Source: a virus (Duplodnaviria; Heunggongvirae; Uroviricota; Caudoviricetes). Taken from it: DNA of 9,261 nt. The stretch lies in the IMG/VR virus record IMGVR_UViG_2657245500_000015; one strand, 5' to 3'. A program made the translations under genes and the position numbers. The notes below the pieces were generated by a model that saw only the letters and a list, made by a program, of their open reading frames with translations, was not told the origin of the DNA and did no database searches. Below, one piece after another: positions 1-9,261 of this stretch. Numbering within the stretch: the stretch's first letter is position 1; each line of letters starts with the position of its first letter.

Positions 1-74
1 TTATCGTGAGAGTAATTCATCGGCACGTTAAATCATATCAGGCGTAATACCACAACCCTTAAGTTAGCGCTTAT

Positions 75-95
75 GGGGGGAAGTCCCCCTTTTTA
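75..95 (+). terminator. Putative rho-independent terminator
   Basis: G/C stem 76-80 (GGGGG) pairs with 85-89 (CCCCC), loop AAGT, followed by TTTTT at 90-94. Stop codons in all three + frames within 1-45 are consistent with a + strand gene ending just left of or at the window start. Confidence 0.4.
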
Positions 96-435
96 ACGTC
101 ATTTTATGCAGGGAATGTGTAGTTCTACACAGATTCTATGCAGTATCGGTATAGTCCCTTTTTATTCTAACTTATTGAAATATATAAAGAATCTGCAAAG
201 CCTCTTTTCAGGGAGCTATGCAGGGTGTTAGTCGTCCCTCTCCAGACACTACATATAGTGCTATATACAGGGCTATATAACGATATATAGATGTTTGGTC
301 ACATGGTGTAACTATCAAGAAACTTAATAGTTTCCTATGTGAAAGTTATTTCTGAGGGTGGGTAAGTGCTCAGGAGATTTCATGAGGATAATTCTTATCC
401 GAATCATCACGTAGAACACGCTTAAGCACAGATAC

Positions 436-458
436 AAAAAAGCCCCCATGAAGGAGGC
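436..458 (-). terminator. Putative rho-independent terminator of the recombinase gene
   Basis: On the minus strand the RNA reads GCCUCC-UUCAU-GGGGGC (6-bp stem with one G-U pair) followed by UUUUUU; it lies 27 nt downstream of the recombinase stop at 485. Confidence 0.55.
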
Positions 459-484
459 TATGAATCTATGCAGGTGATGAGAAA

Positions 485-1051
485 TTATTCAGCTTTAATA
501 CGCTGTACAGTTGACTTGGCAACGTTGAATTGAGCGGCTACTTTAGCGATTGAACTACCAGCAGCAAGAGCAGCTTTAATACCTTCTCTGTCAACCGCTT
601 TACCGTTACCCCTTCCAACTACACGACCAGCAGCTTTAGCAGCTTCATAACCTTCTCTTTGACGCTCAAGCATCATTTTACGTTCAGCTTCAGCCACTGC
701 TGAAAAGATTGTGAGAATCATCTTAGACGTGGGGTTATCGTCACCAGTTATCAGACCTTCTTTGTGAAAGTGAACCTTGATACCTTTCTGTGAAAGTTTA
801 TCCACCAGCGTTAATACATCCACGGTAGAGCGCCCTAAACGTGACAGGTCGTGTACATGGATAGTGTCACCTTCACGAACATAATCGAGCATAGCCTTTA
901 GTTGTGGACGGTCTGTATTCTTCCCAGATGCTTTATCAGTAAATACCTTATCCAGTACGACCCCTTCAAGTTGACGGTCTGTAATCTGCTGGATTGATGA
1001 AACTCGAACATAACCAATGTTAGCCATAATATACTCATTTGCCTTACTCAT
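485..1051 (-). CDS. Serine recombinase, resolvase/invertase family
   Basis: N-terminus MANIGYVRVSSIQQ matches the catalytic-serine motif of Hin/Gin/gamma-delta resolvase; also FTDKASG, DLSRLGRS, ILTIFSAVAEAER E-helix, and a C-terminal HTH (SSIAKVAAQFNVAKSTVQRI). The likely true start is the internal Met at 1027 (MANIGY...), since the ATG at 1051 has no SD. Confidence 0.9.
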   Translation of the reverse strand: MSKANEYIMANIGYVRVSSIQQITDRQLEGVVLDKVFTDKASGKNTDRPQLKAMLDYVREGDTIHVHDLSRLGRSTVDVLTLVDKLSQKGIKVHFHKEGLITGDDNPTSKMILTIFSAVAEAERKMMLERQREGYEAAKAAGRVVGRGNGKAVDREGIKAALAAGSSIAKVAAQFNVAKSTVQRIKAE

Positions 1052-1071
1052 TTGATGGATTGAGTATAACG

Positions 1072-1153
1072 TACCGATAAAGTGTTTTACAAGGCTAATC
1101 GGTATGGTTTTTACAGGGGGTTAGCTATACCTTTTTAGTATGCTATATCGGTA
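1072..1153. promoter_or_regulatory. Candidate recombinase binding (res/crossover-like) region upstream of the recombinase gene
   Basis: Inverted pair TACCGAT (1072-1078) and ATCGGTA (1098-1104), a further ATCGGTA at 1147-1153, and direct GTTTTACAAGG / GGTTTTTACAGG motifs. Its position just 5' of the recombinase gene is typical for res sites. Not validated. Confidence 0.25.
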
Positions 1154-1519
1154 TGCCTAAGAGATGGAGATGCCTTTACAGCAACTCACATAGAAAGTCA
1201 ATAGATATTTGGCTTTTTTGCAAAGGGGGTCACATAGCTGGTGTGACGGGTACTTAGCAGGTATAGACCTGTGATAGATATTTTCGAAGATTCGGGGAAG
1301 ATGAGATTCAAAGAGGGCTAGTCATTTTTTATAAAAATTTTCAGACTCTGAAAAGTTACTGTACAGATTTTATACAGATATCTTTAAAGTATCTGTAAAG
1401 ACTTTTAAGATAAGAGATAGATATCCCAGAAAGGATATCCGTTTAGAAAACCTGTTAAGTATCTCTTAAAAGAGAGTAAACCTTGTCAATAGTGATTGCA
1501 ATAAAAATTTTTATTTCTT

Positions 1520-2182
1520 ATGTCAATTGAGCATATTTTAATCGGGAAACATCATGGGGGTTCTGATTACTGGAGAACTCCATTTCTTATATTCCGCAAT
1601 TTGCACCGTGAGTTTAGTTTCAGTCTGGATGGTGCTGCAACTGAGCATGACACGCTGTTACCACGATTCACCAATGATATTCACAATCAGTCATGGGATG
1701 GTGAACGGGTGTTCTGTAACCCACCATACAGCGACACTAAAACATTCCTCCTAAAAGCCGCTGAAGCGGATTTAGCGGTATTCCTGATACCGTACCGACC
1801 CCACACCACATACTGGCTTAAGCACCTCTTCACAAACCCGCTTTGCCATGAAATCCGTATTCTTCATCGTGCAGTTAAATACCTTCCACCAGCAGGGCAT
1901 AACGGGCTTGCTATTAGGTCACCGTTTGCAAGTGCAATTGTCATCTTTAAAACTGAGCCACGCAGACATGAAATTACGCAGATGATTTGCTGTGCTGATA
2001 CATTGCTACCGTTAACCATCATTAACAGAGGAGGCTTAAGAGGAAGACCCACCATTTACCCACCTGAGACGCTCGACAGCTTCATAAAGCTATACAGGCA
2101 AGGAAAACCCATTAAGTGCATTGCAGATGCTCTCAGAATGCCTCTGAGCACGTCATACAGGATTGCGCAAAGGTTGAGCTAA
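1520..2182 (+). CDS. Dam-family DNA N6-adenine methyltransferase with C-terminal invertase-type HTH domain
   Basis: WRTP, FSLDGAATEHDTLLPRF, VFCNPPYSD and VFLIPYRP motifs are typical of phage (T1-type) Dam methyltransferases. The last ~55 aa (NRGGLRGRPT...LYRQGKPIKCIADALRMPLSTSYRIAQRL) match the GRP plus HTH C-terminal domain of Hin/Gin-type serine recombinases. No obvious SD before the ATG at 1520. Confidence 0.8.
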   Translation: MSIEHILIGKHHGGSDYWRTPFLIFRNLHREFSFSLDGAATEHDTLLPRFTNDIHNQSWDGERVFCNPPYSDTKTFLLKAAEADLAVFLIPYRPHTTYWLKHLFTNPLCHEIRILHRAVKYLPPAGHNGLAIRSPFASAIVIFKTEPRRHEITQMICCADTLLPLTIINRGGLRGRPTIYPPETLDSFIKLYRQGKPIKCIADALRMPLSTSYRIAQRLS

Positions 2183-2286
2183 AATTCTCATAAATATGGC
2201 CATTTACAAGACAGGTGATTTAGATATTAAGAAGTATCCCTGTGAACAATAAATGACCAATCAGTAATTATTCTGTGAAATAATTG

Positions 2287-2315
2287 TTGCAATCTATAAT
2301 CACACATGATATAGT
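2287..2315 (+). promoter_or_regulatory. Candidate sigma70 promoter (TTGCAA-N17-TATAGT) upstream of the replication gene
   Basis: TTGCAA at 2287-2292, 17-bp spacer, TATAGT at 2310-2315. Confidence 0.35.
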
Positions 2316-2548
2316 TTCATAGTGGGCTGATAAAAAAGTTCATGTCTTGAAGTGGTAACACTTGGGGAGGTGTCAGATGATTGACGTCAACAAGACCTCT
2401 CATTCAGGGTAATTACCTCAGCGTTTTAATCATCGTACTGTTTCAGGCATGGACTTCTTTATCAGTCCATCAATCCCCCAGATATTTTAATCACACAGGC
2501 TAATCGGTTTTATCCGGTTGGCCTTTTCACGTATGAGGTAATTTATGA

Positions 2549-3487
2549 ATGTCTAAATATAACCCAAATCAGTTTTATAAATTTGATGTGCGAATCTCTC
2601 AGCTTTCAGAAGAAATTAACGCAGCAGCAAGATTAATTTATATGGTCATGGTTCATAGCTGTGATTTCTATGAAGAGAAGTACAAAGCATATTCACCAAG
2701 TATTGACCATCTAGCTTATATGGCTGGTGTTTCAAAGAGAACGGCAATCAGAGCTATTGAGACACTTGAGAAACACGGTTTAATTCAGGTGCAAAAGAAT
2801 CAGGGTCGTCAAAGCACTTATCGTGTATTCACACTGGATGATAAGCCGGAATTACTTGTAAGACCTACATCACAGGAAGTTGCAGCCTCAGTAAGACAAA
2901 ATGACACCACTACCAGTGACAAAATGTCATCAGTACCAGTGACAAAATGTCATGGGGGTAGTGACAAAATGTCACCCGTGTTAGATAAGTTATTAGATAA
3001 AACATTAGATAATAATATTATAGATAAGAGTAAAGATACTGAACTTGATGTTGGTATCAATGAAGATGATTTTCTTTCTTTGGATGAATTAAATGATTTT
3101 CTCTCTATGAATGAATCTGACCTTGATAGTGAAGCTACTAAAGAGACCTCTAAAACATCTGACTTAGAGGAAGATAAAATCTCTGATGTGAATGAAGTTA
3201 GTGACCAGCAAGATACACCTTGCCGCCTCGAATCAACTGATGATGAATTACCGGATGTTGACCTTGATGATGAAGAAGACCCTGAAGAGGAATTGAAACG
3301 TGAACAGCGTAAAGCAGAAATTAAAGAAAGATTCAGAAAGGCAAAGCTAAAGAACAGGATTGATGAACTTGATGACTTTGATGATAGTGACGATGATTTT
3401 ACTTTTACACCAAAAAAGAAAACTCACACCGAGCCAAAGAAAGAAAAAGTTAAAGTCAGACGTGTTTATGCTGGAGGAATGTTTTAA
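2549..3487 (+). CDS. Replication initiator protein (N-terminal HTH DNA-binding domain, acidic C-terminal tail)
   Basis: N-terminal region (SIDHLAYMAGVSKRTAIRAIETLEKHGLI) resembles HTH-type phage/plasmid replication initiators. Four iterons and an AT-rich tract lie inside the coding sequence, as in lambda O/ori. SD GAGG at 2534-2537. The C-terminal third is highly acidic low-complexity sequence. Confidence 0.8.
   Translation: MSKYNPNQFYKFDVRISQLSEEINAAARLIYMVMVHSCDFYEEKYKAYSPSIDHLAYMAGVSKRTAIRAIETLEKHGLIQVQKNQGRQSTYRVFTLDDKPELLVRPTSQEVAASVRQNDTTTSDKMSSVPVTKCHGGSDKMSPVLDKLLDKTLDNNIIDKSKDTELDVGINEDDFLSLDELNDFLSMNESDLDSEATKETSKTSDLEEDKISDVNEVSDQQDTPCRLESTDDELPDVDLDDEEDPEEELKREQRKAEIKERFRKAKLKNRIDELDDFDDSDDDFTFTPKKKTHTEPKKEKVKVRRVYAGGMF
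2893..2975. repeat. Iteron array: four copies of the palindromic motif (a)GTGACAAAATGTCA(t) at ~23-bp spacing
   Basis: GACAAAATG cores at 2895-2903 (degenerate copy AGACAAAATGACA), 2918-2926, 2941-2949 and 2963-2971. Each full site has dyad symmetry (TGACA-AAA-TGTCA). The 23/23/22-bp period is about two helical turns. Confidence 0.7.
2981..3029. other. AT-rich tract with repeated TTAGATAA (putative DNA unwinding element of the origin)
   Basis: TTAGATAA at 2981-2988, 2993-3000 and 3005-3012 (12-bp period), and TAGATAAG at 3022-3029, immediately downstream of the iterons. Same order (iterons then AT-rich) as lambda ori. Confidence 0.5.
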
Positions 3488-3777
3488 TGAAAGAATATAA
3501 CGGTGAAAAACGATACAAAGATTATCTATTAAGGCGCTACAGCATTTCTCGTGAAGGTCATCTTCTGAAAGATACTCATGGGGAGGTTTACCGGATTCGA
3601 CCGAAGAAGGAAGGAAAGAATTATTTCTTTTTTGATGGTGTGACAGATTTAAAGATTGACGCTTTGAGGTTTGCAGTGATGTATCATTTTGATGTCTGGG
3701 ATTCAGTCCACCAGCTACGATTAAAAGACGGTGACCCCGGTAATCTGAAGGCCACCAATATCATCACAAAACGTTAG
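3487..3777 (+). CDS. Hypothetical small protein, NUMOD4/HNH_3-like (possibly degenerate HNH)
   Basis: The ATG overlaps the replication gene stop (TAATG coupling) and GGAGGA SD lies at 3471-3476. YSISREGHLL, ALRFAVMYHF and LRLKDGDPGNLKATN parallel the Y.VSN.GRV / HRLV / HIDGNK.NN.NL pattern of small HNH homing-endonuclease-like proteins, but the conserved His positions appear replaced. Confidence 0.6.
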   Translation: MKEYNGEKRYKDYLLRRYSISREGHLLKDTHGEVYRIRPKKEGKNYFFFDGVTDLKIDALRFAVMYHFDVWDSVHQLRLKDGDPGNLKATNIITKR

Positions 3778-3959
3778 TTTGTTTTACCATCATCAATCGT
3801 AATTGTGATTTCATATTTGAAAAGCTTAATGCTGAAATTGAATCGTGTACTTTTGGCGATAATCATTTTTAAAAGCTGATACACCAGAAGCACCAGAAAC
3901 ACAAAGCAACCTAAGCTTGCGAATCTGTGAGATTCAGCAATTGTTTCAAGAAAGCCCAT
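3774..3959 (-). CDS. Small hydrophobic (probable membrane) protein, 61 aa
   Basis: Minus-strand ORF with a predicted transmembrane stretch (LGCFVFLVLLVYQLL). SD-like AAGGGGA 5 nt upstream of the ATG, and a candidate minus-strand promoter at 4011-4038. Its 3' end overlaps the convergent ORF ending at 3777. Confidence 0.4.
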   Translation of the reverse strand: MGFLETIAESHRFASLGCFVFLVLLVYQLLKMIIAKSTRFNFSIKLFKYEITITIDDGKTN

Positions 3960-4010
3960 TAATTCCCCTTATTTATCAAAGGGAATGACCTGTATCAGCC
4001 CCTATAACCA

Positions 4011-4038
4011 TAATATCATGTAAATGAGATGTTGACAA
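4011..4038 (-). promoter_or_regulatory. Candidate minus-strand sigma70 promoter (TTGTCA-N16-TATTAT)
   Basis: The reverse complement of 4033-4038 is TTGTCA and of 4011-4016 is TATTAT, with a 16-bp spacer. It would drive the small hydrophobic ORF 3959->3774. Confidence 0.35.
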
Positions 4039-4060
4039 TATGTTAAATAAATGTTAAGAT
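4032..4060 (+). promoter_or_regulatory. Candidate sigma70 promoter (TTGACA-N17-TAAGAT) for the 4097-4812 operon
   Basis: TTGACA at 4032-4037, 17-bp spacer, TAAGAT at 4055-4060. Its -35 overlaps the -35 of the divergent minus-strand promoter. Confidence 0.4.
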
Positions 4061-4096
4061 TGTAGTATGAGTAAGAGATTTAAGGAGATTTTTACA

Positions 4097-4387
4097 ATGA
4101 CTCACACAGTTACGCGCCTTTTGCCAGAGGCATTTGAACGACTGGCAGCAATCAAAGCCAAATATCCCGATATGAAGCACACAGCGCTTGTTGCAGAGGT
4201 TTTAAAAGAGCCGGTAGACTTGACCCCTTTCGATAACGTTAAGGGCGTTGCAGAGGGTTCTAAGGCCATCAGAATCACAACGGGCCAACTGGAACTACTC
4301 AAAGCACAGTCCGCAGTAGCAGGTTGCTCAATGATTCAGGTCTTAAGCGCAAAGGTTCATCAATTAGCGGATAAGCTGGGGGTTTAA
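4097..4387 (+). CDS. Hypothetical DNA-binding protein, ribbon-helix-helix-like (possibly two tandem RHH motifs)
   Basis: The start is moved to the ATG at 4097 because of the AAGGAG SD at 4082-4087 (the ATG at 4067 sits on the promoter). TVTRLLPEAFERLAAIKAKY...HTALVAEVL and IRITTGQLELLKAQSAVAG...MIQVLSAKV each fit a beta-strand/helix/helix RHH pattern. Confidence 0.65.
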   Translation: MTHTVTRLLPEAFERLAAIKAKYPDMKHTALVAEVLKEPVDLTPFDNVKGVAEGSKAIRITTGQLELLKAQSAVAGCSMIQVLSAKVHQLADKLGV

Positions 4388-4812
4388 TGCTATGTACATT
4401 TGATTATCATGCGTTTTATCGACATAGAGGTCATCTTGTCCGTGAGAATAACGGAACATGGAAAGATTTAACTCGTAATGCTGAACCCTTCACACACCAG
4501 CAATTAAAATCCCGCTTCTCCAGATGGAAGAATGCACCAGCAGATACTGGTGATTTTGAGATTATCCATACCTTCGATTATGCCTCAGAAGATGACCTTC
4601 ACGATGCAATTAAGCTGATTGAAGACTTCAATACCTCAGAAAATGTGGATGGTGACAAATATAAATCCCGTGGTAACCGCTATAACCGTGATGATATCAC
4701 TCAGGCCATAAATGCTGGTCAATCTCAGCGATACATTACAGAAAAATATGGTATTTCACGGAGACAGTATTTCTACGTTAAATCATTGATTAATAAAGAC
4801 AATTCAAAATAA
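4387..4812 (+). CDS. Hypothetical protein with C-terminal helix-turn-helix
   Basis: The ATG overlaps the upstream stop (TAATG), indicating translational coupling. C-terminal ITQAINAGQSQRYITEKYGISRRQYFYV resembles resolvase/HTH_23-type HTH motifs. Confidence 0.65.
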   Translation: MLCTFDYHAFYRHRGHLVRENNGTWKDLTRNAEPFTHQQLKSRFSRWKNAPADTGDFEIIHTFDYASEDDLHDAIKLIEDFNTSENVDGDKYKSRGNRYNRDDITQAINAGQSQRYITEKYGISRRQYFYVKSLINKDNSK

Positions 4813-4971
4813 CCATCTCAGTAACGGTAGAATGCACTTTACAGGCAGAGTTGCACCTTAATTTGATAAATTACCTTACCAGCCAGTGCAACTCCCTCTG
4901 TAACCCGCATGGTTACTGGCCTCAGAATGGCTATTTTAAGAGGTCTGAGATGTGTTTTAGAGGAATTTAAA

Positions 4972-5295
4972 ATGAGCAATTACGAATTACAGATTTTCGT
5001 TGATAACGACACCGCTATGATGATTCAGGCTTTCAGTGATTCCGGTGTATCAATTGATTTTGACAGGCTGTTAAAGCTGATGGCTGATAATGCAGAAAAC
5101 ATCTCTGACTTTATTCAGTCGGTGGAGTTTAACGAGCCTCGAATGATGCTACCAATTACCGACTCAAACATGAAAAGATTGGTTATCGAGCAAACGAACA
5201 AACACAGTATTTCCCCAGAGCAATTTTTGAAAGGTGCTGTGACAATCCTGCACAGCGATAATATTCTGGTGACGGATTCTATGAGGGTTCACTAA
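4972..5295 (+). CDS. Hypothetical protein (107 aa)
   Basis: The start is placed at the ATG at 4972, preceded by GAGGA at 4959-4963; the longer ORF from 4909 has no SD. No family recognised. Confidence 0.6.
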   Translation: MSNYELQIFVDNDTAMMIQAFSDSGVSIDFDRLLKLMADNAENISDFIQSVEFNEPRMMLPITDSNMKRLVIEQTNKHSISPEQFLKGAVTILHSDNILVTDSMRVH

Positions 5296-5372
5296 TGGGA
5301 TTGATAATTGCTTGGACAGCTTTAGGTTTATTTGTTGGTTGCTGGGTGGGCAACACAGTAAATAAGAATTGA
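5295..5372 (+). CDS. Possible 25-aa hydrophobic peptide (MGLIIAWTALGLFVGCWVGNTVNKN)
   Basis: The ATG overlaps the stop of the upstream gene (TAATG at 5293-5297). The peptide is a single predicted transmembrane helix. Below the size cut-off of the ORF track. Confidence 0.3.
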   Translation: MGLIIAWTALGLFVGCWVGNTVNKN

Positions 5373-5396
5373 TGTTACCAATCTGTTAAAAAGCTG

Positions 5397-5425
5397 TTGA
5401 CAAATAACCTTAAGCATGGCATAAT
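5397..5425 (+). promoter_or_regulatory. Consensus-like sigma70 promoter (TTGACA-N17-CATAAT)
   Basis: TTGACA at 5397-5402, 17-bp spacer, CATAAT at 5420-5425; predicted transcription start near 5432. Confidence 0.5.
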
Positions 5426-5620
5426 TGTATATATGAGGATAGTCTTCTATCCGAAGTCTATAGGAAGAGCAATTTTTCCTAAAATCATATTTTCAATAAT
5501 CCGATGGATGGATATTCTGAGTTGGAAAGGTGCAATGCTTTTCGTCATGGCCTTTCAGTTTAGTCTGAGAGGTCATCTCAAAAAGTGCTTAATCATTCAT
5601 TATTGAACCCTTACAGCTTT

Positions 5621-5650
5621 GCCCTAACTCATGATTAGGGCGTTTTCTTT
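5621..5650 (+). terminator. Rho-independent terminator
   Basis: Stem GCCCTAA (5621-5627) pairs with TTAGGGC (5635-5641), 7-nt loop, followed by GTTTTCTTT. About 220 nt downstream of the 5397 promoter. Confidence 0.55.
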
Positions 5651-5720
5651 AAGAGTTTTGAAACAGAGCTTTTAAAGAAAGTTTTCCTGAAACTTCGTTA
5701 ACGTTATAAGCAAACCTTCA

Positions 5721-5755
5721 AAGCCCTTCACAGATTATGTTTAGGGCTTTTCTTA
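5721..5755 (+). terminator. Second terminator-like hairpin
   Basis: AAGCCCT (5721-5727) pairs with AGGGCTT (5743-5749), 15-nt loop, followed by TTCTT. Weaker than the first because of the large loop. Confidence 0.3.
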
Positions 5756-5851
5756 ATAGAGCATCTTTAATAAATCGTTAAGTCATCTTCTAAGTGTATT
5801 GGCGTTGAAGGTGCTCTATTAAGAAATAACCACACTTAGAGGAAAAAAATA

Positions 5852-6562
5852 ATGACAAACGATATTTACATTAATGGCAAAGTGATTGATAGCTTCGGTG
5901 ACTGGTCACCACAGACTGAACATCCAGCTATCGCTATTCAGCGCAAAGAGCACGATGCGAGAATTGCACTTGAGCAATCGCTAAAGATGACACCAAAGGA
6001 AATTACCTTTGTGGCTCCTGAACCTCAAGAGATGCCCGATATTGGCAAAACTGAAGCATTATTTAATCTTGAGCGCGAATATTACCCACAGTTAAAAGAA
6101 CAGCGCCTTAGATTAGATGACGCTTACAGCAAAGTTACCTTGATGCAATCAGCTATTGAGCCGTCAGAATTTGAGATTCAGGATGAATTGTCACAGAAAC
6201 CATTTGTCTATTACCAATACGAAGACAATGATGGTTTTGGTACTTTTCCAGAAAACATCACAGGCGTGATTAGTAGTCTTCCTGATGGATATCGAATTGT
6301 GAAGATGGTTAAAGCTTCAAGAGGTGCTGGTCAGTTTATTTACATGACCAATAAGAGCGATGAAGAACTCCGTGAAATTGCCAGACAGAACATCTTGGCA
6401 TCACGTAACAAGCAACTTGAAAATGTTAAGTTGTATCTCTCAAGAGAGCTTCAGGCTATGAAAGAGCTTGTTAGTGAATATGAGTCGCAGAAGAAGATTG
6501 CTATGCAAGCCGATATTGAGCAGCTTACGAAGATTTCTCAGAAGTATAGCAAAGCGATTTAA
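5852..6562 (+). CDS. Hypothetical protein (236 aa, C-terminal predicted coiled coil)
   Basis: Long ORF with SD AGAGG at 5838-5842 and ATG at 5852. No family recognised. Confidence 0.75.
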   Translation: MTNDIYINGKVIDSFGDWSPQTEHPAIAIQRKEHDARIALEQSLKMTPKEITFVAPEPQEMPDIGKTEALFNLEREYYPQLKEQRLRLDDAYSKVTLMQSAIEPSEFEIQDELSQKPFVYYQYEDNDGFGTFPENITGVISSLPDGYRIVKMVKASRGAGQFIYMTNKSDEELREIARQNILASRNKQLENVKLYLSRELQAMKELVSEYESQKKIAMQADIEQLTKISQKYSKAI

Positions 6563-6578
6563 TTTAAGTGAGGTGAGA

Positions 6579-6794
6579 ATGATTGATTTGCAACAGCGTT
6601 ATGAAACTATTAAGTCGGCTTGTGAAAACTTAAAGTTACAAACCAAGCCAGCCTTAAGAATTAAAACCAAACATCAAATTATCACCTCACACAAACCAAA
6701 AACACGCAAGATTCCAAAGTGGTGTATTGACCGTATTCCTTCTGATGCTCAAATCATAGGTGAAACGGAATTACATTATCTTGTCCGACATTAA
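6579..6794 (+). CDS. Hypothetical small basic protein (71 aa)
   Basis: ATG at 6579 preceded by GAGGTGA at 6568-6574. The longer ORF from 6468 overlaps the preceding gene and lacks an SD. Confidence 0.5.
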   Translation: MIDLQQRYETIKSACENLKLQTKPALRIKTKHQIITSHKPKTRKIPKWCIDRIPSDAQIIGETELHYLVRH

Positions 6795-6821
6795 AAAAGA
6801 ATTGGTTGGGTAAAAATCAAC

Positions 6822-6863
6822 GGGAGAGATTATCGAGTGATATCGGTAGTTTCTCCCTTTTTT
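6822..6863 (+). terminator. Putative terminator hairpin with T-run
   Basis: GGGAGA (6822-6827) pairs with TCTCCC (6852-6857), followed by TTTTTT at 6858-6863. The loop is long (24 nt), so stability is uncertain. Confidence 0.4.
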
Positions 6864-6870
6864 GTATGTG

Positions 6871-6913
6871 TGCTACGTGAAATCTTCTGAACAGATATAC
6901 CCACCAAAAATTA
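6871..6913. repeat. Direct repeat copy R1 (TGCTACGTGA-AAT-CTTCTGAACAGATA...AAAAATTA)
   Basis: About 43 bp, near-identical to 9110-9152: blocks TGCTACGTGA (10/10), CTTCTGAACAGATA (14/14) and CAAAAATTA match, with a short variable linker. R1 is additionally bounded by the 7-bp inverted repeat GCTACGT (6872-6878) / ACGTAGC (6920-6926). Confidence 0.7.
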
Positions 6914-6954
6914 TTTTTTACGTAGCTCACGCTTAAAGAGGTGAAAAAATATGA

Positions 6955-9021
6955 ATGGCACAATTTAAAGTTGATGATTTTCTGATTGAGCTAGGTTTTA
7001 ACTCTCAGAGGGTTTTAAAAGGTCTGGAAAAAGCCGAGAAACAAACGATGCAGGTAGCATCACGAATTGAGAAGCGATTGAATAAAGCTTTTAAAGTTAA
7101 CCCTACGCCTTTAAATGATTCTCTCAAGGTCATGGAAAGAAATGTCGATAAAACTGTTTCCAAGATTGAGCAGCGTCTTAAAAACACTAAAGCGTTTAAG
7201 ATTAAAACGGAAATTGAGGATACTTTAAAGCCACTTAGACAACCGAGACAGCCACGAATTAGCGGAAGCAGAGCAATTACAGCAGCGCATAGCGTGAATA
7301 TGAGCAAGCTTCGTGACTTTAATCCTATGCTTGAGAAGTATTTTAAAAGCCAGTATTACAGCTTAAGCAGTAAATCCAAGACACTTGGAAACGAAGCTTT
7401 TAATCGTGAGTTAGCAAAATTAAATCAATCTCTTCGTGAAACACTTTCTAAGTTTAACAAGACCACCAGCAAAAATAATCACAGTGAAAATGCTTCGAAT
7501 GGTCTGGATGTATTAGCTACGAGTGCAATCAAAGCAGGTACAGCCATTTATAGTTTTCAGACAGCCTTAGAAGCTTACAGGCGGATTATGGAGGTTGGTC
7601 TGAAAAAAGAAGCATCACAACGAGCGGCACAATTCGTTTTAGGTGATGAAGGTGCTAAACGAGCTACAGAATTTGTTAAGAATCTTGCTGATAGTAGTGG
7701 TGTAGACCAGATTGAAACATTAAGCAGTTTTGCTAAGTTTTCCGCTGGTGCTGGTGATATGAATGCAGACCAGAAAGAATCCTTATTTTCTAATGTGATT
7801 GGTACATCCAGATTAATGGGGCTAAGCACCGATGAAATTAACGGGATTTTAAAAGCTTTCGAGCAGATGGCATCTAAAGGAAAGATTCAGGCTGAAGAGC
7901 TACGCGGTCAATTAGGTGACAGAATGGCAGGTGCTTTTCAGTTATTTGCCAGAAGTCTTGGGATGACTACGGAAGAATTAGACAAGGCTATGAAAGACGG
8001 TAAGGTTCTTTCTAAAGATGTTCTCCCTAAAGTATCCGCTGAAATGGGAAAGATGATTGATAAAGCGGGAGGATGGGAAAAGATTATTAACTCTACTCAG
8101 ACGCAGTTAGGCCGCTTAAGTAATTCATGGAATAATAATTTGGCCTTAATGTTCGATGGTTCACAGGAAGGTTTAACAGACTTTACAAGGTCACTGACTA
8201 ATTTACTTAATTCACTGGGTGGTCAATCTAAAAATCTTGGTGAACATTTTGGCGACTTGATGAAAAGCATGTCAAACGGTATTGATGATTTAACCACGAT
8301 TAGCTACCGAGTGCAGGGATTCTTTGACAGAGTGACCCTTGCTTACAGAGAATTAAATGACACTCAAAAAGCTGTAGCTGATGGTATCGCAAATGGCCTG
8401 TTAAGTGCATTAAAGGGACTTGCTGGTATTGTCGCTGTAAGGTCTGGTATTGGTGCTGTAGGTGGTATCTGGAACTTAATTAGGGCTATTTCCACGCTTG
8501 GGAATGTAGCAAATACAGCAGCAGGAAGAATTAATTCACGTTCTGGTGGTGTTGAAAGTGGAAAAAGTAGGCTATCTGTAGCTGATGCAATTACCAGAGT
8601 AATGATTGTCGGTATGACAACTGATGTGATTAATGCCATTGTCAAACCGTTCTATGAACGTCAGATGAGTAAGTCAGATAATCCGATTGATAAAGTTGTA
8701 AGGTCAAAGGTGGAACCCACAGACCAGGCATTAACTGGTGACATGAACTCTTTAGCCGCTGTTTTATGGGCTATGGTTCATGGCAAATCAAAAGATGTTC
8801 CACAGTTTTCACCTGAAGCATTAAATAATCTAAAAGGTCGAGTGGAAACATTCACACAAGATTTAAAGGTTATCAAGCCGTCAGTAAATATTCAGCCTCA
8901 GACAATCAATATCACAACTCAGACGGTACTTGATGGAAAGGTTATTGATGAAAGAACCACATCGCATATTAATCGTATGCAGGAAGATACCTTGATTAGC
9001 TCAGCTTACCCAGAGGAATAA
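6955..9021 (+). CDS. Tape-measure-domain protein (phage tail tape measure-like), 688 aa
   Basis: The segment FEQMASKGKIQAEELRGQLGDRMAGAFQLFARSLGMTTEELDKAMKDGKVLSKDVLPKVSAEMGK matches the conserved tape-measure domain pattern (SKGK.Q.EEL..QL..R.PGA.Q..A...G....EL...M..GK.L...VLP). A Gly-rich hydrophobic segment (GLAGIVAVRSGIGAVGGIWNLI) is typical of tape-measure proteins. SD AAAGAGGTGA at 6936-6945. Confidence 0.85.
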   Translation: MAQFKVDDFLIELGFNSQRVLKGLEKAEKQTMQVASRIEKRLNKAFKVNPTPLNDSLKVMERNVDKTVSKIEQRLKNTKAFKIKTEIEDTLKPLRQPRQPRISGSRAITAAHSVNMSKLRDFNPMLEKYFKSQYYSLSSKSKTLGNEAFNRELAKLNQSLRETLSKFNKTTSKNNHSENASNGLDVLATSAIKAGTAIYSFQTALEAYRRIMEVGLKKEASQRAAQFVLGDEGAKRATEFVKNLADSSGVDQIETLSSFAKFSAGAGDMNADQKESLFSNVIGTSRLMGLSTDEINGILKAFEQMASKGKIQAEELRGQLGDRMAGAFQLFARSLGMTTEELDKAMKDGKVLSKDVLPKVSAEMGKMIDKAGGWEKIINSTQTQLGRLSNSWNNNLALMFDGSQEGLTDFTRSLTNLLNSLGGQSKNLGEHFGDLMKSMSNGIDDLTTISYRVQGFFDRVTLAYRELNDTQKAVADGIANGLLSALKGLAGIVAVRSGIGAVGGIWNLIRAISTLGNVANTAAGRINSRSGGVESGKSRLSVADAITRVMIVGMTTDVINAIVKPFYERQMSKSDNPIDKVVRSKVEPTDQALTGDMNSLAAVLWAMVHGKSKDVPQFSPEALNNLKGRVETFTQDLKVIKPSVNIQPQTINITTQTVLDGKVIDERTTSHINRMQEDTLISSAYPEE

Positions 9022-9109
9022 ACAATGTTAGAGCTACTAATATTTATTGCCACACATGGCAATCTATTAATCTTTATCTAGTATGACGATTCAACTATGA
9101 ATAGTCGAA

Positions 9110-9152
9110 TGCTACGTGATTTCTTCTGAACAGATACCAACATCAAAAATTA
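9110..9152. repeat. Direct repeat copy R2
   Basis: Near-identical to R1 (6871-6913); lies 89 bp downstream of the tape-measure gene stop. It lacks the right-hand ACGTAGC inverted-repeat arm seen at R1. Confidence 0.7.
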
Positions 9153-9261
9153 GATGAACCGCCCCGGGTTTCCTGGAGAGTGTTTTATCTGTGAACTCAG
9201 GCTGCCAGATCATTGTTTCCGATGGAAGCATAATAAGCTTTTTCTGCTTCTGCCGGAGGAG
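9112..9261 (-). CDS. Possible 3' end of a minus-strand gene continuing beyond the window (partial)
   Basis: The minus-strand frame is open for 49 codons from the window edge to a TAG at 9112-9114 (...LIFDVGICSEEIT*). The last ~110 bp are about 50% GC by manual count, against roughly 40% elsewhere. A + strand frame from the ATG at 9154 is also open, so strand and reality are uncertain. Confidence 0.25.
   Translation of the reverse strand, partial: LLRQKQKKLIMLPSETMIWQPEFTDKTLSRKPGAVHLIFDVGICSEEIT

What the first reader, a model, noticed from the sequence alone, without database searches (positions are those of the whole stretch)
9110..9261. Possible element boundary at the right edge: GC shift and a probable minus-strand gene end adjoining repeat R2
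Downstream of R2 the sequence is about 50% GC by manual count versus roughly 40% for the rest of the window, and a minus-strand frame is open from the window edge to a stop at 9112-9114 that falls inside R2. Elements that integrate into the 3' end of a host gene leave exactly this signature (the att core overlaps the gene end). The internal copy R1 would then be a second att-like copy.
Basis: inference. Interest (0 to 1): 0.45.

Follow-up and report, generated by a model that had tools for sequence, protein, structure and literature searches.

The report
IS629 end interrupting a regulatory repeat
The GC-rich right edge of the window is the terminal 107 bases of the common insertion sequence IS629, which has jumped into a small phage-like island and cut one copy of an intergenic repeat in two; it is not the island's integration site, so the finding is ordinary.

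Summary
Positions 9155-9261 are 49.5% GC against 38.9% for the rest, and a minus-strand frame is open from the edge to a TAG at 9112-9114.

- **What the edge is.** Positions 9155-9261 are the end of IS629 (IS3 family). The 25-nt terminal inverted repeat is identical to an annotated copy.
It is a chance open frame that runs across the IS terminus into R2.
- **What R1 and R2 are.** They are not att copies. They are two copies of an ~85-nt intergenic module (GCTACGTGAAA, ~33 nt, TTTCACGTAGCTCACGCTTAA, ribosome-binding site, ATG). One precedes the tape-measure-like gene and one precedes the next gene.
- **What relatives show.** IS629 cut R2 between loop and right arm. In relatives without the IS, the island continues about 2.4 kb (a baseplate-like gene, then a large serine recombinase) to its real junction inside yecE.
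- **The left edge.** Positions 1-77 are an IS421 end, so the window is a short-read contig broken at multi-copy IS elements.

In passing: the island's two tail genes are homologues of adjacent genes of Felix O1-like lytic phages, which hints at an undescribed satellite family.

The parts
9155..9261 (-). Terminal 107 nt of IS629 (IS3 family). It holds the 25-nt terminal inverted repeat (9155-9179) and the last 20 codons plus stop of transposase orfB (stop 9197-9199, coding 9200-9259, minus strand).
   Evidence: 97-100% identical to IS629/IS3-family copies in 176 phage records, 3285 plasmids and most E. coli genomes. 9155-9179 is identical to the annotated IS629 inverted repeat of phage CP-1639. 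The frame gives PPAEAEKAYYASIGNNDLAA*, against the annotated OrfB C-terminus ...PPAEAEKAYYASIGNDDLAA*. Contig L019 extends the same junction, and 524 nt of IS629 sequence in it match the CP-1639 copy at 99.2%, with an rve-domain ORF.
9101..9154 (+). R2: the left two-thirds of the ~85-nt intergenic module (left arm GCTACGTGATT at 9111-9121, then the loop). IS629 cut it after TAGA of the -10-like hexamer TAGATT (9151-9154).
   Evidence: nhmmer with a profile of 14 distinct copies aligns window 9101-9155 to model positions 3-57 only. Relatives read ...AAAAATTAGA TTTCACGTAGCTCACGCTTAACAG...ATG at this place. The truncated copy no longer folds (z +0.83), whereas intact copies give z -4.3 to -4.7.
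6862..6946 (+). R1: an intact copy of the module. Left arm 6872-6882, -10-like TATTTT 6912-6917, right arm 6916-6926, tail TCACGCTTAAAG, then the ribosome-binding site GAGGTG and the ATG of the tape-measure-like gene.
   Evidence: (nhmmer E = 4.9e-24)
6822..6867 (+). Strong intrinsic terminator (15-bp stem plus T-run) immediately upstream of R1.
   Evidence: the same terminator is present in L001.
6955..9021 (+). Tape-measure-like gene (688 aa) lying between R1 and R2.
   Evidence: Pfam TMP_3 9.5e-21, phrog_4036 3.8e-93, TIGR02675. 28-29% identical over its full length to tape measure proteins of Felix O1-like phages.
334..427 (-). R3: a third, degenerate copy of the module on the minus strand, just after the terminator of the resolvase gene and pointing at the island's left end. 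It carries a 24-nt insertion also seen in copies in L008 and L018.
   Evidence: weak nhmmer hit, E = 0.012; read by eye; alignment.
1..77 (-). End of IS421 (IS4 family), including the first 20 nt of its transposase gene. This is the left contig break.
   Evidence: 100% identical over 77 nt to an annotated IS421 copy. Island homology in relatives starts at 75.

Best explanation
**What is shown**
- The window is a short-read contig of a ~11-kb phage-like island, broken at both ends in multi-copy insertion sequences.
- At the right end, an IS629 copy (1310 bp and 54% GC in the reference copy) is inserted at 9154/9155 with its transposase genes on the minus strand.
- This explains the jump in GC and the minus-strand gene end. 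The real gene end is orfB, stop at 9197-9199.
- R2 ends exactly at the boundary because the IS landed inside it.
- R1 and R2 are two copies of an ~85-nt intergenic module that precedes the tape-measure-like gene and the following gene. They have no role in integration.
- In relatives, integration is carried out by a large serine recombinase encoded about 0.8 kb further right, at a site inside yecE.

**What is inferred**
- The module is most likely a portable promoter-operator. It has an invariant TAnnnT -10-like hexamer, no -35, and a conserved 9-12-bp dyad (GCTACGTGA / TCACGTAGC) that would bind a regulator.
- The IS629 insertion splits the -10-like hexamer from its upstream half, and so probably silences or rewires the downstream gene.
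For: **IS identity**
- thousands of 97-100% matches that start at 9144-9155.
- annotated IS629 with its inverted repeat and orfB aligned to 9153-9261.
- the 25-nt inverted repeat is identical, the OrfB C-terminus matches 19 of 20 residues, and the reference IS629 is 54% GC.
- contig L019 continues the junction, and 524 nt of IS629 sequence in it are 99.2% identical to the CP-1639 copy.

**Empty site**
- relatives are 100% identical over 8960-9155. They then continue TTTCACGTAGCTCACGCTTAA...ATG of the next gene, then the recombinase gene, then the yecE fragment.

**Contig-break reading**
- IS421 end at 1-77.
- all 13 public contigs with the exact TMP protein are 2.6-9.7 kb. Three end 28 nt into the IS.

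**The module**
- each of the six related elements whose flanks are fully covered has a copy in front of the gene after TMP, and most also have one in front of TMP.
- alignment with invariant arms and invariant T, A and T of the hexamer.
- a strong terminator lies just upstream of R1, and no sigma-70 consensus promoter is found.
- present in 432 of 5426 complete E. coli genomes, on chromosomes only.
Against: - The other end of this IS629 copy is not in the window and could not be found. The target duplication, and whether the rest of the island lies beyond the IS, are therefore unverified.
- For the promoter reading of the module, there is no transcript evidence and no -35.
- Five relatives (L005, L006, L007, L009, L011) lack the copy upstream of TMP altogether, so that copy is dispensable or TMP can be expressed by read-through.
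- The dyad also folds well as an RNA hairpin.
Confidence: 0.92

Rival explanations
1. First reader's reading. The AT-rich island integrated into the 3' end of a host gene that runs leftwards from the window edge. R2 is the att core overlapping that gene's end, and R1 is a second att-like copy.
For: A GC shift and an open minus-strand frame ending inside R2 do exist.
Against: - The flank is IS629, not a host gene, and the open frame is not the coding frame.
- In relatives both R copies are internal and the island continues about 2.4 kb further, to a junction in yecE.
- The island's recombinase is a large serine recombinase, and its ends show inverted symmetry (TAAATACACTA / TAGTGTATTTA), not a direct repeat.
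- There is no tRNA in the window.
Confidence: 0.02
2. The IS629 junction marks a real truncation. IS-mediated deletion or rearrangement removed the right-hand 2.4 kb (baseplate-like gene, recombinase, attR), so 9154 is the surviving end of a decayed island rather than a simple insertion.
For: The far-side junction (IS629 end followed by TTCACGTAGCTCACGCTTAA) was not found in viral or metagenome collections. A second IS (IS421) sits about 75 bp from the island's left end, which shows the island is being eroded by IS elements.
Against: Absence from those collections means little, because the near-side junction is absent from them too. Simple insertion is the commonest outcome of transposition. 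Nothing in the window distinguishes the two cases.
Confidence: 0.15
3. The junction is an assembly chimera that joins island DNA to an unrelated IS read.
For: Contig ends inside repeats are where mis-joins happen.
Against: The identical junction occurs in independent assemblies from several samples (L019 from NCBI; L020-L022 from three Logan runs, aligned). The break falls precisely at the first base of the IS inverted repeat.
Confidence: 0.02
4. Function of the R module, RNA reading. It acts as an RNA hairpin in a read-through transcript (a processing, stability or translation-control element upstream of the ribosome-binding site) rather than as a promoter-operator.
For: Intact copies fold into a 10-13-bp stem with z -3.3 to -4.7 against shuffles, more weakly on the opposite strand (z -2.6). 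One stem position alternates between G-C and G-U, which is tolerated only on the + strand RNA. The module always lies 27-50 nt upstream of a start codon.
Against: There is no covariation beyond the shuffled control. The arms are conserved as sequence even in the divergent L100 copy. In R2 of the window and of L001, the AA to TT change in the left arm breaks pairing without compensation. No Rfam family matches.
Confidence: 0.25
5. Function of the R module, recombination reading. R1 and R2 are recombination sites for the island's small serine recombinase (window 485-1051), allowing deletion or inversion of the tape-measure gene segment.
For: The island encodes a Hin/Mpi-like invertase-resolvase. 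R1 and R2 are direct repeats with internal dyads that flank a 2.2-kb segment. The R1 copy shows presence/absence polymorphism.
Against: L001 has both R copies but no small recombinase gene. The arms are about 33 bp apart, far from the 2-bp-centred 26-28-bp crossover sites of this enzyme family (established knowledge of Hin/Gin and gamma-delta resolvase sites). No relative was seen with the TMP segment deleted or inverted between R copies.
Confidence: 0.05

Closest known systems
IS629 (IS3 family; also listed as IS1203-like) insertions in E. coli prophages and prophage-like elements
   Same: The 25-nt terminal inverted repeat is identical, the OrfB C-terminus and the rve-domain ORF match, and IS629 has the high GC seen at the edge (54% in the reference copy). 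It lies in a prophage-like element, which is where 62% of IS629 copies of O157:H7 lie, and the literature reports no sequence-specific target (PMC3271280).
   Different: Only 107 nt are in the window. This particular insertion site is absent from 5426 complete E. coli genomes. The target duplication cannot be seen.
att sites of integrative elements that target the 3' end of tRNA or protein genes (lambda/P4-type tyrosine integrases)
   Different: The repeat copies are both internal and promoter-proximal. The flanking gene is a transposase. The island uses a large serine recombinase and splits yecE in the middle.
Activator-dependent late promoters of satellite-helper systems (P2/P4 Ogr/Delta-dependent promoters with an upstream dyad)
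   Same: A repeated, portable module in front of morphogenetic genes, with a recognisable -10, no -35 and a conserved dyad. This is resemblance only.
   Different: The dyad here is GCTACGTGA / TCACGTAGC with about 37 bp between the cores, bracketing the -10 rather than centred at -55. No activator has been identified. The module is absent from 50,697 phage records.
PLE of Vibrio cholerae (a satellite of the lytic myophage ICP1, integrated by a large serine recombinase)
   Same: This comparison concerns the host island, not the finding itself. It is a small chromosomal element with a large serine recombinase and its own replication initiator with iterons. It has no capsid or packaging genes. 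It carries genes related to those of a virulent myophage.
   Different: There is no sequence homology to PLE. The island carries homologues of tail genes (TMP and the following gene) of Felix O1-like phages. Nothing here tests induction, replication or transduction.

Membership tests
IS629 / IS3 family insertion sequence | Terminal inverted repeat beginning 5'-TG, characteristic of the element (TGAACCGCCCCGGGTTTCCTGGAGA). | tested here: met
   Window 9155-9179 is identical (25/25) to the annotated inverted repeat of IS629 in AJ304858.
IS629 / IS3 family insertion sequence | DDE (rve) transposase OrfB ending a few tens of bases inside the inverted repeat. | tested here: met
   The minus-strand frame gives PPAEAEKAYYASIGNNDLAA*, 19 of 20 residues identical to annotated OrfB. 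The 148-aa continuation in L019 has rve, rve_2 and rve_3 domains.
IS629 / IS3 family insertion sequence | Full element of about 1.3 kb, with orfA and orfB joined by a -1 frameshift and a second inverted repeat. | not testable with these tools
   The window ends 107 nt into the IS. The longest public contig with this junction (L019) matches IS629 for 524 nt.
IS629 / IS3 family insertion sequence | 3-4-bp target-site duplication. | not testable with these tools
   The far junction was not found. The expected duplication is AGA or TAGA, from the IS629 behaviour reported in PMC3271280.
att site of a site-specific integrative element | Copies of the core lie at the two outer ends of the element. 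| tested here: not met
   In L001 and six other relatives both R copies are internal. The right-hand one lies about 2.4 kb inside the island's right end in L001.
att site of a site-specific integrative element | The core overlaps the end of a conserved host gene or tRNA, and an empty site exists in genomes without the element. | tested here: not met
   The flanking ORF is a transposase. There is no tRNA. The real target is yecE, which is split into two fragments flanking the island.
sigma-70-type promoter (for the R module) | -10 hexamer with A at position 2 and T at position 6, plus a -35 hexamer at 16-18 bp. | tested here: inconclusive
   TAnnnT is invariant in 15 aligned copies, but no -35 is present and the consensus scan reports no promoter in R1 or R2. 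There are no transcript data.
structured cis-regulatory RNA (for the R module) | A base-paired stem supported by compensatory changes. | tested here: not met
   88% of cells are paired, but covariation is not above the shuffled control (111-180 of 500 shuffles reach the observed values). The stem core is invariant. No Rfam match.

The most novel reading that the evidence does not exclude
The host island may be an undescribed satellite or parasite of Felix O1-like virulent myophages. It is about 11 kb and lies in yecE or next to tonB, in about 8% of complete E. coli genomes. It has a large serine recombinase, an O-like initiator with iterons, a Dam methylase, and homologues of the adjacent phage tail genes (TMP, and gp017 at about 73% amino-acid identity). 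The R modules, one of which the IS629 destroyed here, would be its infection-responsive promoters for those tail genes.
Probability: 0.3. Interest if true: 0.65.

Novelty: already known. Interest (0 to 1): 0.12.

Why it matters
As posed, the finding does not matter much. It is a routine IS629 insertion together with a contig break, and recognising it prevents a false call of an integration site and a false host gene. Two side products have some value.

1. The R1/R2 repeat is an ~85-nt module found only in this island family, always in front of the two tail-gene homologues. This gives a concrete handle for asking how the island's genes are switched on.
2. The island's tail genes point to Felix O1-like lytic phages as possible partners. 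No paper on such a system was found in the library searched.

Tried and rejected
- **Locating the junction elsewhere.** I searched for the exact near-side junction and for the expected far-side junction in 5426 complete E. coli genomes (near-side only), IMG/VR and JGI metagenomes. Neither was found.
- **Species representatives.** A GTDB scan with the TMP protein gave only one truncated E. albertii locus.
- **Helper-phage signal hypothesis.** I tested whether the R module is borrowed from a helper phage. There was no nhmmer hit at E <= 100 in phage SUSP2 and no blastn hit in 50,697 phage records. Rejected.
- **RNA-structure hypothesis.** The covariation count showed no support beyond shuffles, and there was no Rfam family.
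- **Loose dyad scan.** A loose dyad pattern in viral contigs returned about 120 mostly unrelated loci. After nhmmer filtering, only one new divergent copy (L100) remained.
- **Invertible loop idea.** I considered that the module's loop might be invertible, because the third copy seemed to have its tail on the other side. Re-reading showed it is simply a whole copy on the minus strand with the usual terminator upstream. Rejected.
- **Other window proteins.** Defence-system models matched only the Dam methylase (as an orphan methyltransferase) and gave weak HTH hits on the initiator; nothing matched the unknown island proteins. Only TMP and the following gene have SUSP2 homologues.

Full report
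**1. The observation**

The right-hand 107 bases (9155-9261) are 49.5% GC, against 38.9% for 123-9154. Only 2% of equal-sized windows within the island reach that value. On the minus strand the frame from the window edge is open for 49 codons and ends at TAG (9112-9114), inside repeat R2. The R1/R2 repeat is real: 6871-6913 and 9110-9152, 43 nt, 84% identical. The open frame alone is weak evidence, because a 49-codon open frame occurs by chance in about one frame in ten.

**2. What the edge is**

- A megablast of the window against phage, plasmid and E. coli genome collections gives thousands of 97-100% matches confined to 9144/9155-9261. They are annotated as IS629 or IS3-family transposase.
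- In phage CP-1639 (AJ304858) the match aligns window 9155 with the first base of the annotated 25-nt IS629 inverted repeat. Window 9197 aligns with the last base of the orfB stop codon, orfB being on the minus strand.
- The 25 nt at 9155-9179 are identical to that repeat.
- The third minus-strand frame reads PPAEAEKAYYASIGNNDLAA*, against the annotated OrfB C-terminus ...PPAEAEKAYYASIGNDDLAA*.
- The reference IS629 is 1310 bp and 54% GC, which accounts for the compositional jump.
It stays open by chance through the non-coding IS terminus into island DNA.
- A public contig with the same junction (L019) continues into the IS. Its 524 nt of IS629 sequence are 99.2% identical to the CP-1639 copy and encode an rve-domain protein.

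**3. Why the window ends there**

The left edge is also an IS end. Positions 1-77 are 100% identical to IS421 (IS4 family), including the first 20 nt of its transposase gene on the minus strand. All 13 public contigs that encode exactly the window's 688-aa protein are 2.6-9.7 kb. Three of them stop 28 nt into IS629. This is the normal picture of a short-read contig broken at multi-copy repeats. Because the same junction recurs in independent samples, it is a real insertion in a lineage and not a chimera. None of 5426 complete E. coli genomes has this junction, and neither do IMG/VR or JGI metagenome contigs.

**4. The empty site and the real island ends**

- About 450 complete E. coli genomes carry relatives of the island. 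In these, identity runs up to window position 9154/9155 (100% over 8960-9155 in two strains).
- The sequence then continues TTTCACGTAGCTCACGCTTAACAGAATAGGAATAACAACAATG. That ATG is the start of a 257-aa gene annotated 'phage baseplate protein'.
- In strain ZJ3920 the island is about 11.1 kb. After that gene comes a 507-aa large serine recombinase on the opposite strand. The island is flanked by the two halves of yecE (DUF72).
- A closer relative of the window's left part (strain LZSFT34) is also in yecE. It shows that IS421 sits about 75 bp inside the island's left end.
- A sister family sits next to tonB.
- The island termini in ZJ3920 carry an inverted repeat (TAAATACACTA / TAGTGTATTTA), as expected for serine-recombinase attachment sites, and not a direct repeat.
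- The window has no tRNA.

**5. What R1 and R2 are**

Seen in uninterrupted relatives, each is an ~85-nt module laid out in this order:
- a left arm, GCTACGTGAAA;
- about 33 nt containing ATACC(C/A)AC and an A-run;
- the hexamer TA(G/T)(A/T)(A/T)T;
- a right arm, TT(C/T)ACGTAGC;
- the tail TCACGCTTAA;
- a ribosome-binding site and the ATG, 27-50 nt downstream of the right arm.

Other properties of the module:
- *Placement.* A profile built from 14 distinct copies finds a copy in front of the gene after TMP in every related element examined. Most elements also have one between a strong intrinsic terminator (window 6822-6857 plus T-run) and the TMP start.
- *Truncation in the window.* The second copy aligns only to model positions 3-57. 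IS629 has entered after TAGA of TAGATT.
- *A third copy.* A degenerate copy lies at 334-427 on the minus strand, after the resolvase gene's terminator, pointing at the island's left end.
- *Distribution.* The module is found in 432 of 5426 complete E. coli genomes, on chromosomes only. It is absent from 50,697 phage records. One divergent copy lies in front of an unrelated gene (phrog_7674) in a temperate-phage contig.

**6. How the module probably works (inference)**

- *Folding without covariation.* Intact copies fold as a long hairpin with z -3.3 to -4.7. The stem shows no covariation above the shuffled control and is conserved as sequence. In R2 of this window the left arm has AA to TT changes that break pairing without compensation.
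- *A -10-like hexamer.* The three invariant loop positions next to the right arm are the T, A and T of a -10-like TAnnnT hexamer. There is no -35, and the consensus scan finds no standard promoter. R1 follows a strong terminator.
- *Preferred reading.* I therefore favour (about 0.4) a portable, activator- or repressor-controlled promoter whose dyad is the regulator's site.
- *Alternatives.* An RNA hairpin acting in cis is second (about 0.25). Recombination sites for the island's small serine recombinase are unlikely, because L001 lacks that gene yet keeps the modules.
- *Evidence against an essential role for R1.* Five relatives lack the copy upstream of TMP.

Whichever reading is right, IS629 separated the left arm and loop of R2 from the right arm, leader and gene. 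The downstream gene in this lineage is probably uncoupled from its normal control.

**7. Comparison with known things**

The feature in the finding is a member of IS629/IS3 on every criterion the 107 nt allow. The inverted repeat and the OrfB end are met; the full length and the target duplication are not testable. IS629 is reported to lie mostly (62%) in prophages and prophage-like elements, to lack a sequence-specific target, and to duplicate 3-4 bp (PMC3271280). It fails the tests for an integrative-element att site. The R module matches no Rfam family and no sequenced phage.

**8. Seen in passing**

- *Island gene content.* The island encodes a Hin/Mpi-like small serine recombinase, a Dam methylase with a C-terminal HTH, and an O-like replication initiator whose gene contains 23-bp iterons (2895-2979). 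It also encodes several proteins with no family, and the TMP-like protein.
- *Tail-gene homologues.* The TMP-like protein is 28-29% identical over its full length to tape measure proteins of Felix O1-like virulent myophages. The next gene is 69-73% identical to the gene that immediately follows TMP in those phages (gp016/gp017 of SUSP2).
- *No other phage homologues.* No other island protein has a SUSP2 homologue, and defence-system models matched only the Dam methylase and, weakly, the initiator's HTH.
- *Literature.* I found no paper in the held library describing a satellite of Felix O1-like phages or this island family. Bobay et al. list yecE among genes disrupted by prophage integration (PMC3603311).
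- *Reading.* A small, recombinase-bearing, self-replicating island with two tail-gene homologues of a lytic phage is reminiscent of satellite or anti-phage logic. Nothing here tests that.

**9. Verdict**

The finding itself is ordinary and of a known kind. Interest is low (0.12). The island that hosts it is the more interesting object.

Noticed in passing
window 6955-9021, and the next gene in relatives (L001 16641-17414): The island's tape-measure-like gene and the gene after it are homologues of the adjacent genes gp016 and gp017 of Felix O1-like virulent myophages (28-29% and 69-73% amino-acid identity). The island has no capsid or packaging genes but has a large serine recombinase and its own initiator. 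It may be an undescribed satellite or parasite of these lytic phages; no paper was found.
   Followed up: partly
window 1-77: The left edge is the end of IS421 (IS4 family), including the start of its transposase gene, inserted about 75 bp inside the island's left end. Both contig ends are therefore multi-copy IS elements.
   Followed up: yes
window 334-427 (minus strand): A third, degenerate copy of the R module lies after the resolvase gene's terminator and points out of the island's left end. In a circularised island it would read across the attachment site towards the serine recombinase gene.
   Followed up: partly
L005, L006, L007, L009, L011 (upstream of TMP); L008 7227-7338; L018 4742-4847: The R copy upstream of TMP is polymorphic. 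It is cleanly absent in five relatives, two of which (L007, L009) keep only the AACGCTTAACAGAGGTG-like tail. In two other relatives it carries a 24-nt palindromic insertion (TGATTCGGATAAGAATTATCCTCA). The pattern looks like hairpin-mediated deletion and insertion.
   Followed up: partly
window 2895-2979: Three to four tandem 23-bp iterons (GACAAAATGTCA...) lie inside the O-like replication initiator gene (2549-3487), the arrangement of a lambda-type origin.
   Followed up: no
L023 2470-2512 (Stx2a phage Stx2_EH0787): Another IS629 copy has almost the same 11 nt of flank as here (CAAAAATTAAA against CAAAAATTAGA), next to a palindrome CTACGAAAATTTTCGTAG. This could be chance or a weak A/T-rich target preference of IS629.
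   Followed up: no
L100 12364-12427 (IMG/VR contig of 90 kb): A divergent R-like module (same arms, ATACCC box and CACGCTTA tail) lies upstream of an unrelated gene of unknown function (phrog_7674), next to a tyrosine integrase in a temperate-phage contig. This suggests the module is portable.
   Followed up: partly
window 485-1051 (minus strand) and 1520-2182: A small Hin/Mpi-like serine recombinase is present in this island variant but absent from ZJ3920 (L001). The Dam methylase carries a resolvase-type HTH_7 domain at its C-terminus.
   Followed up: no
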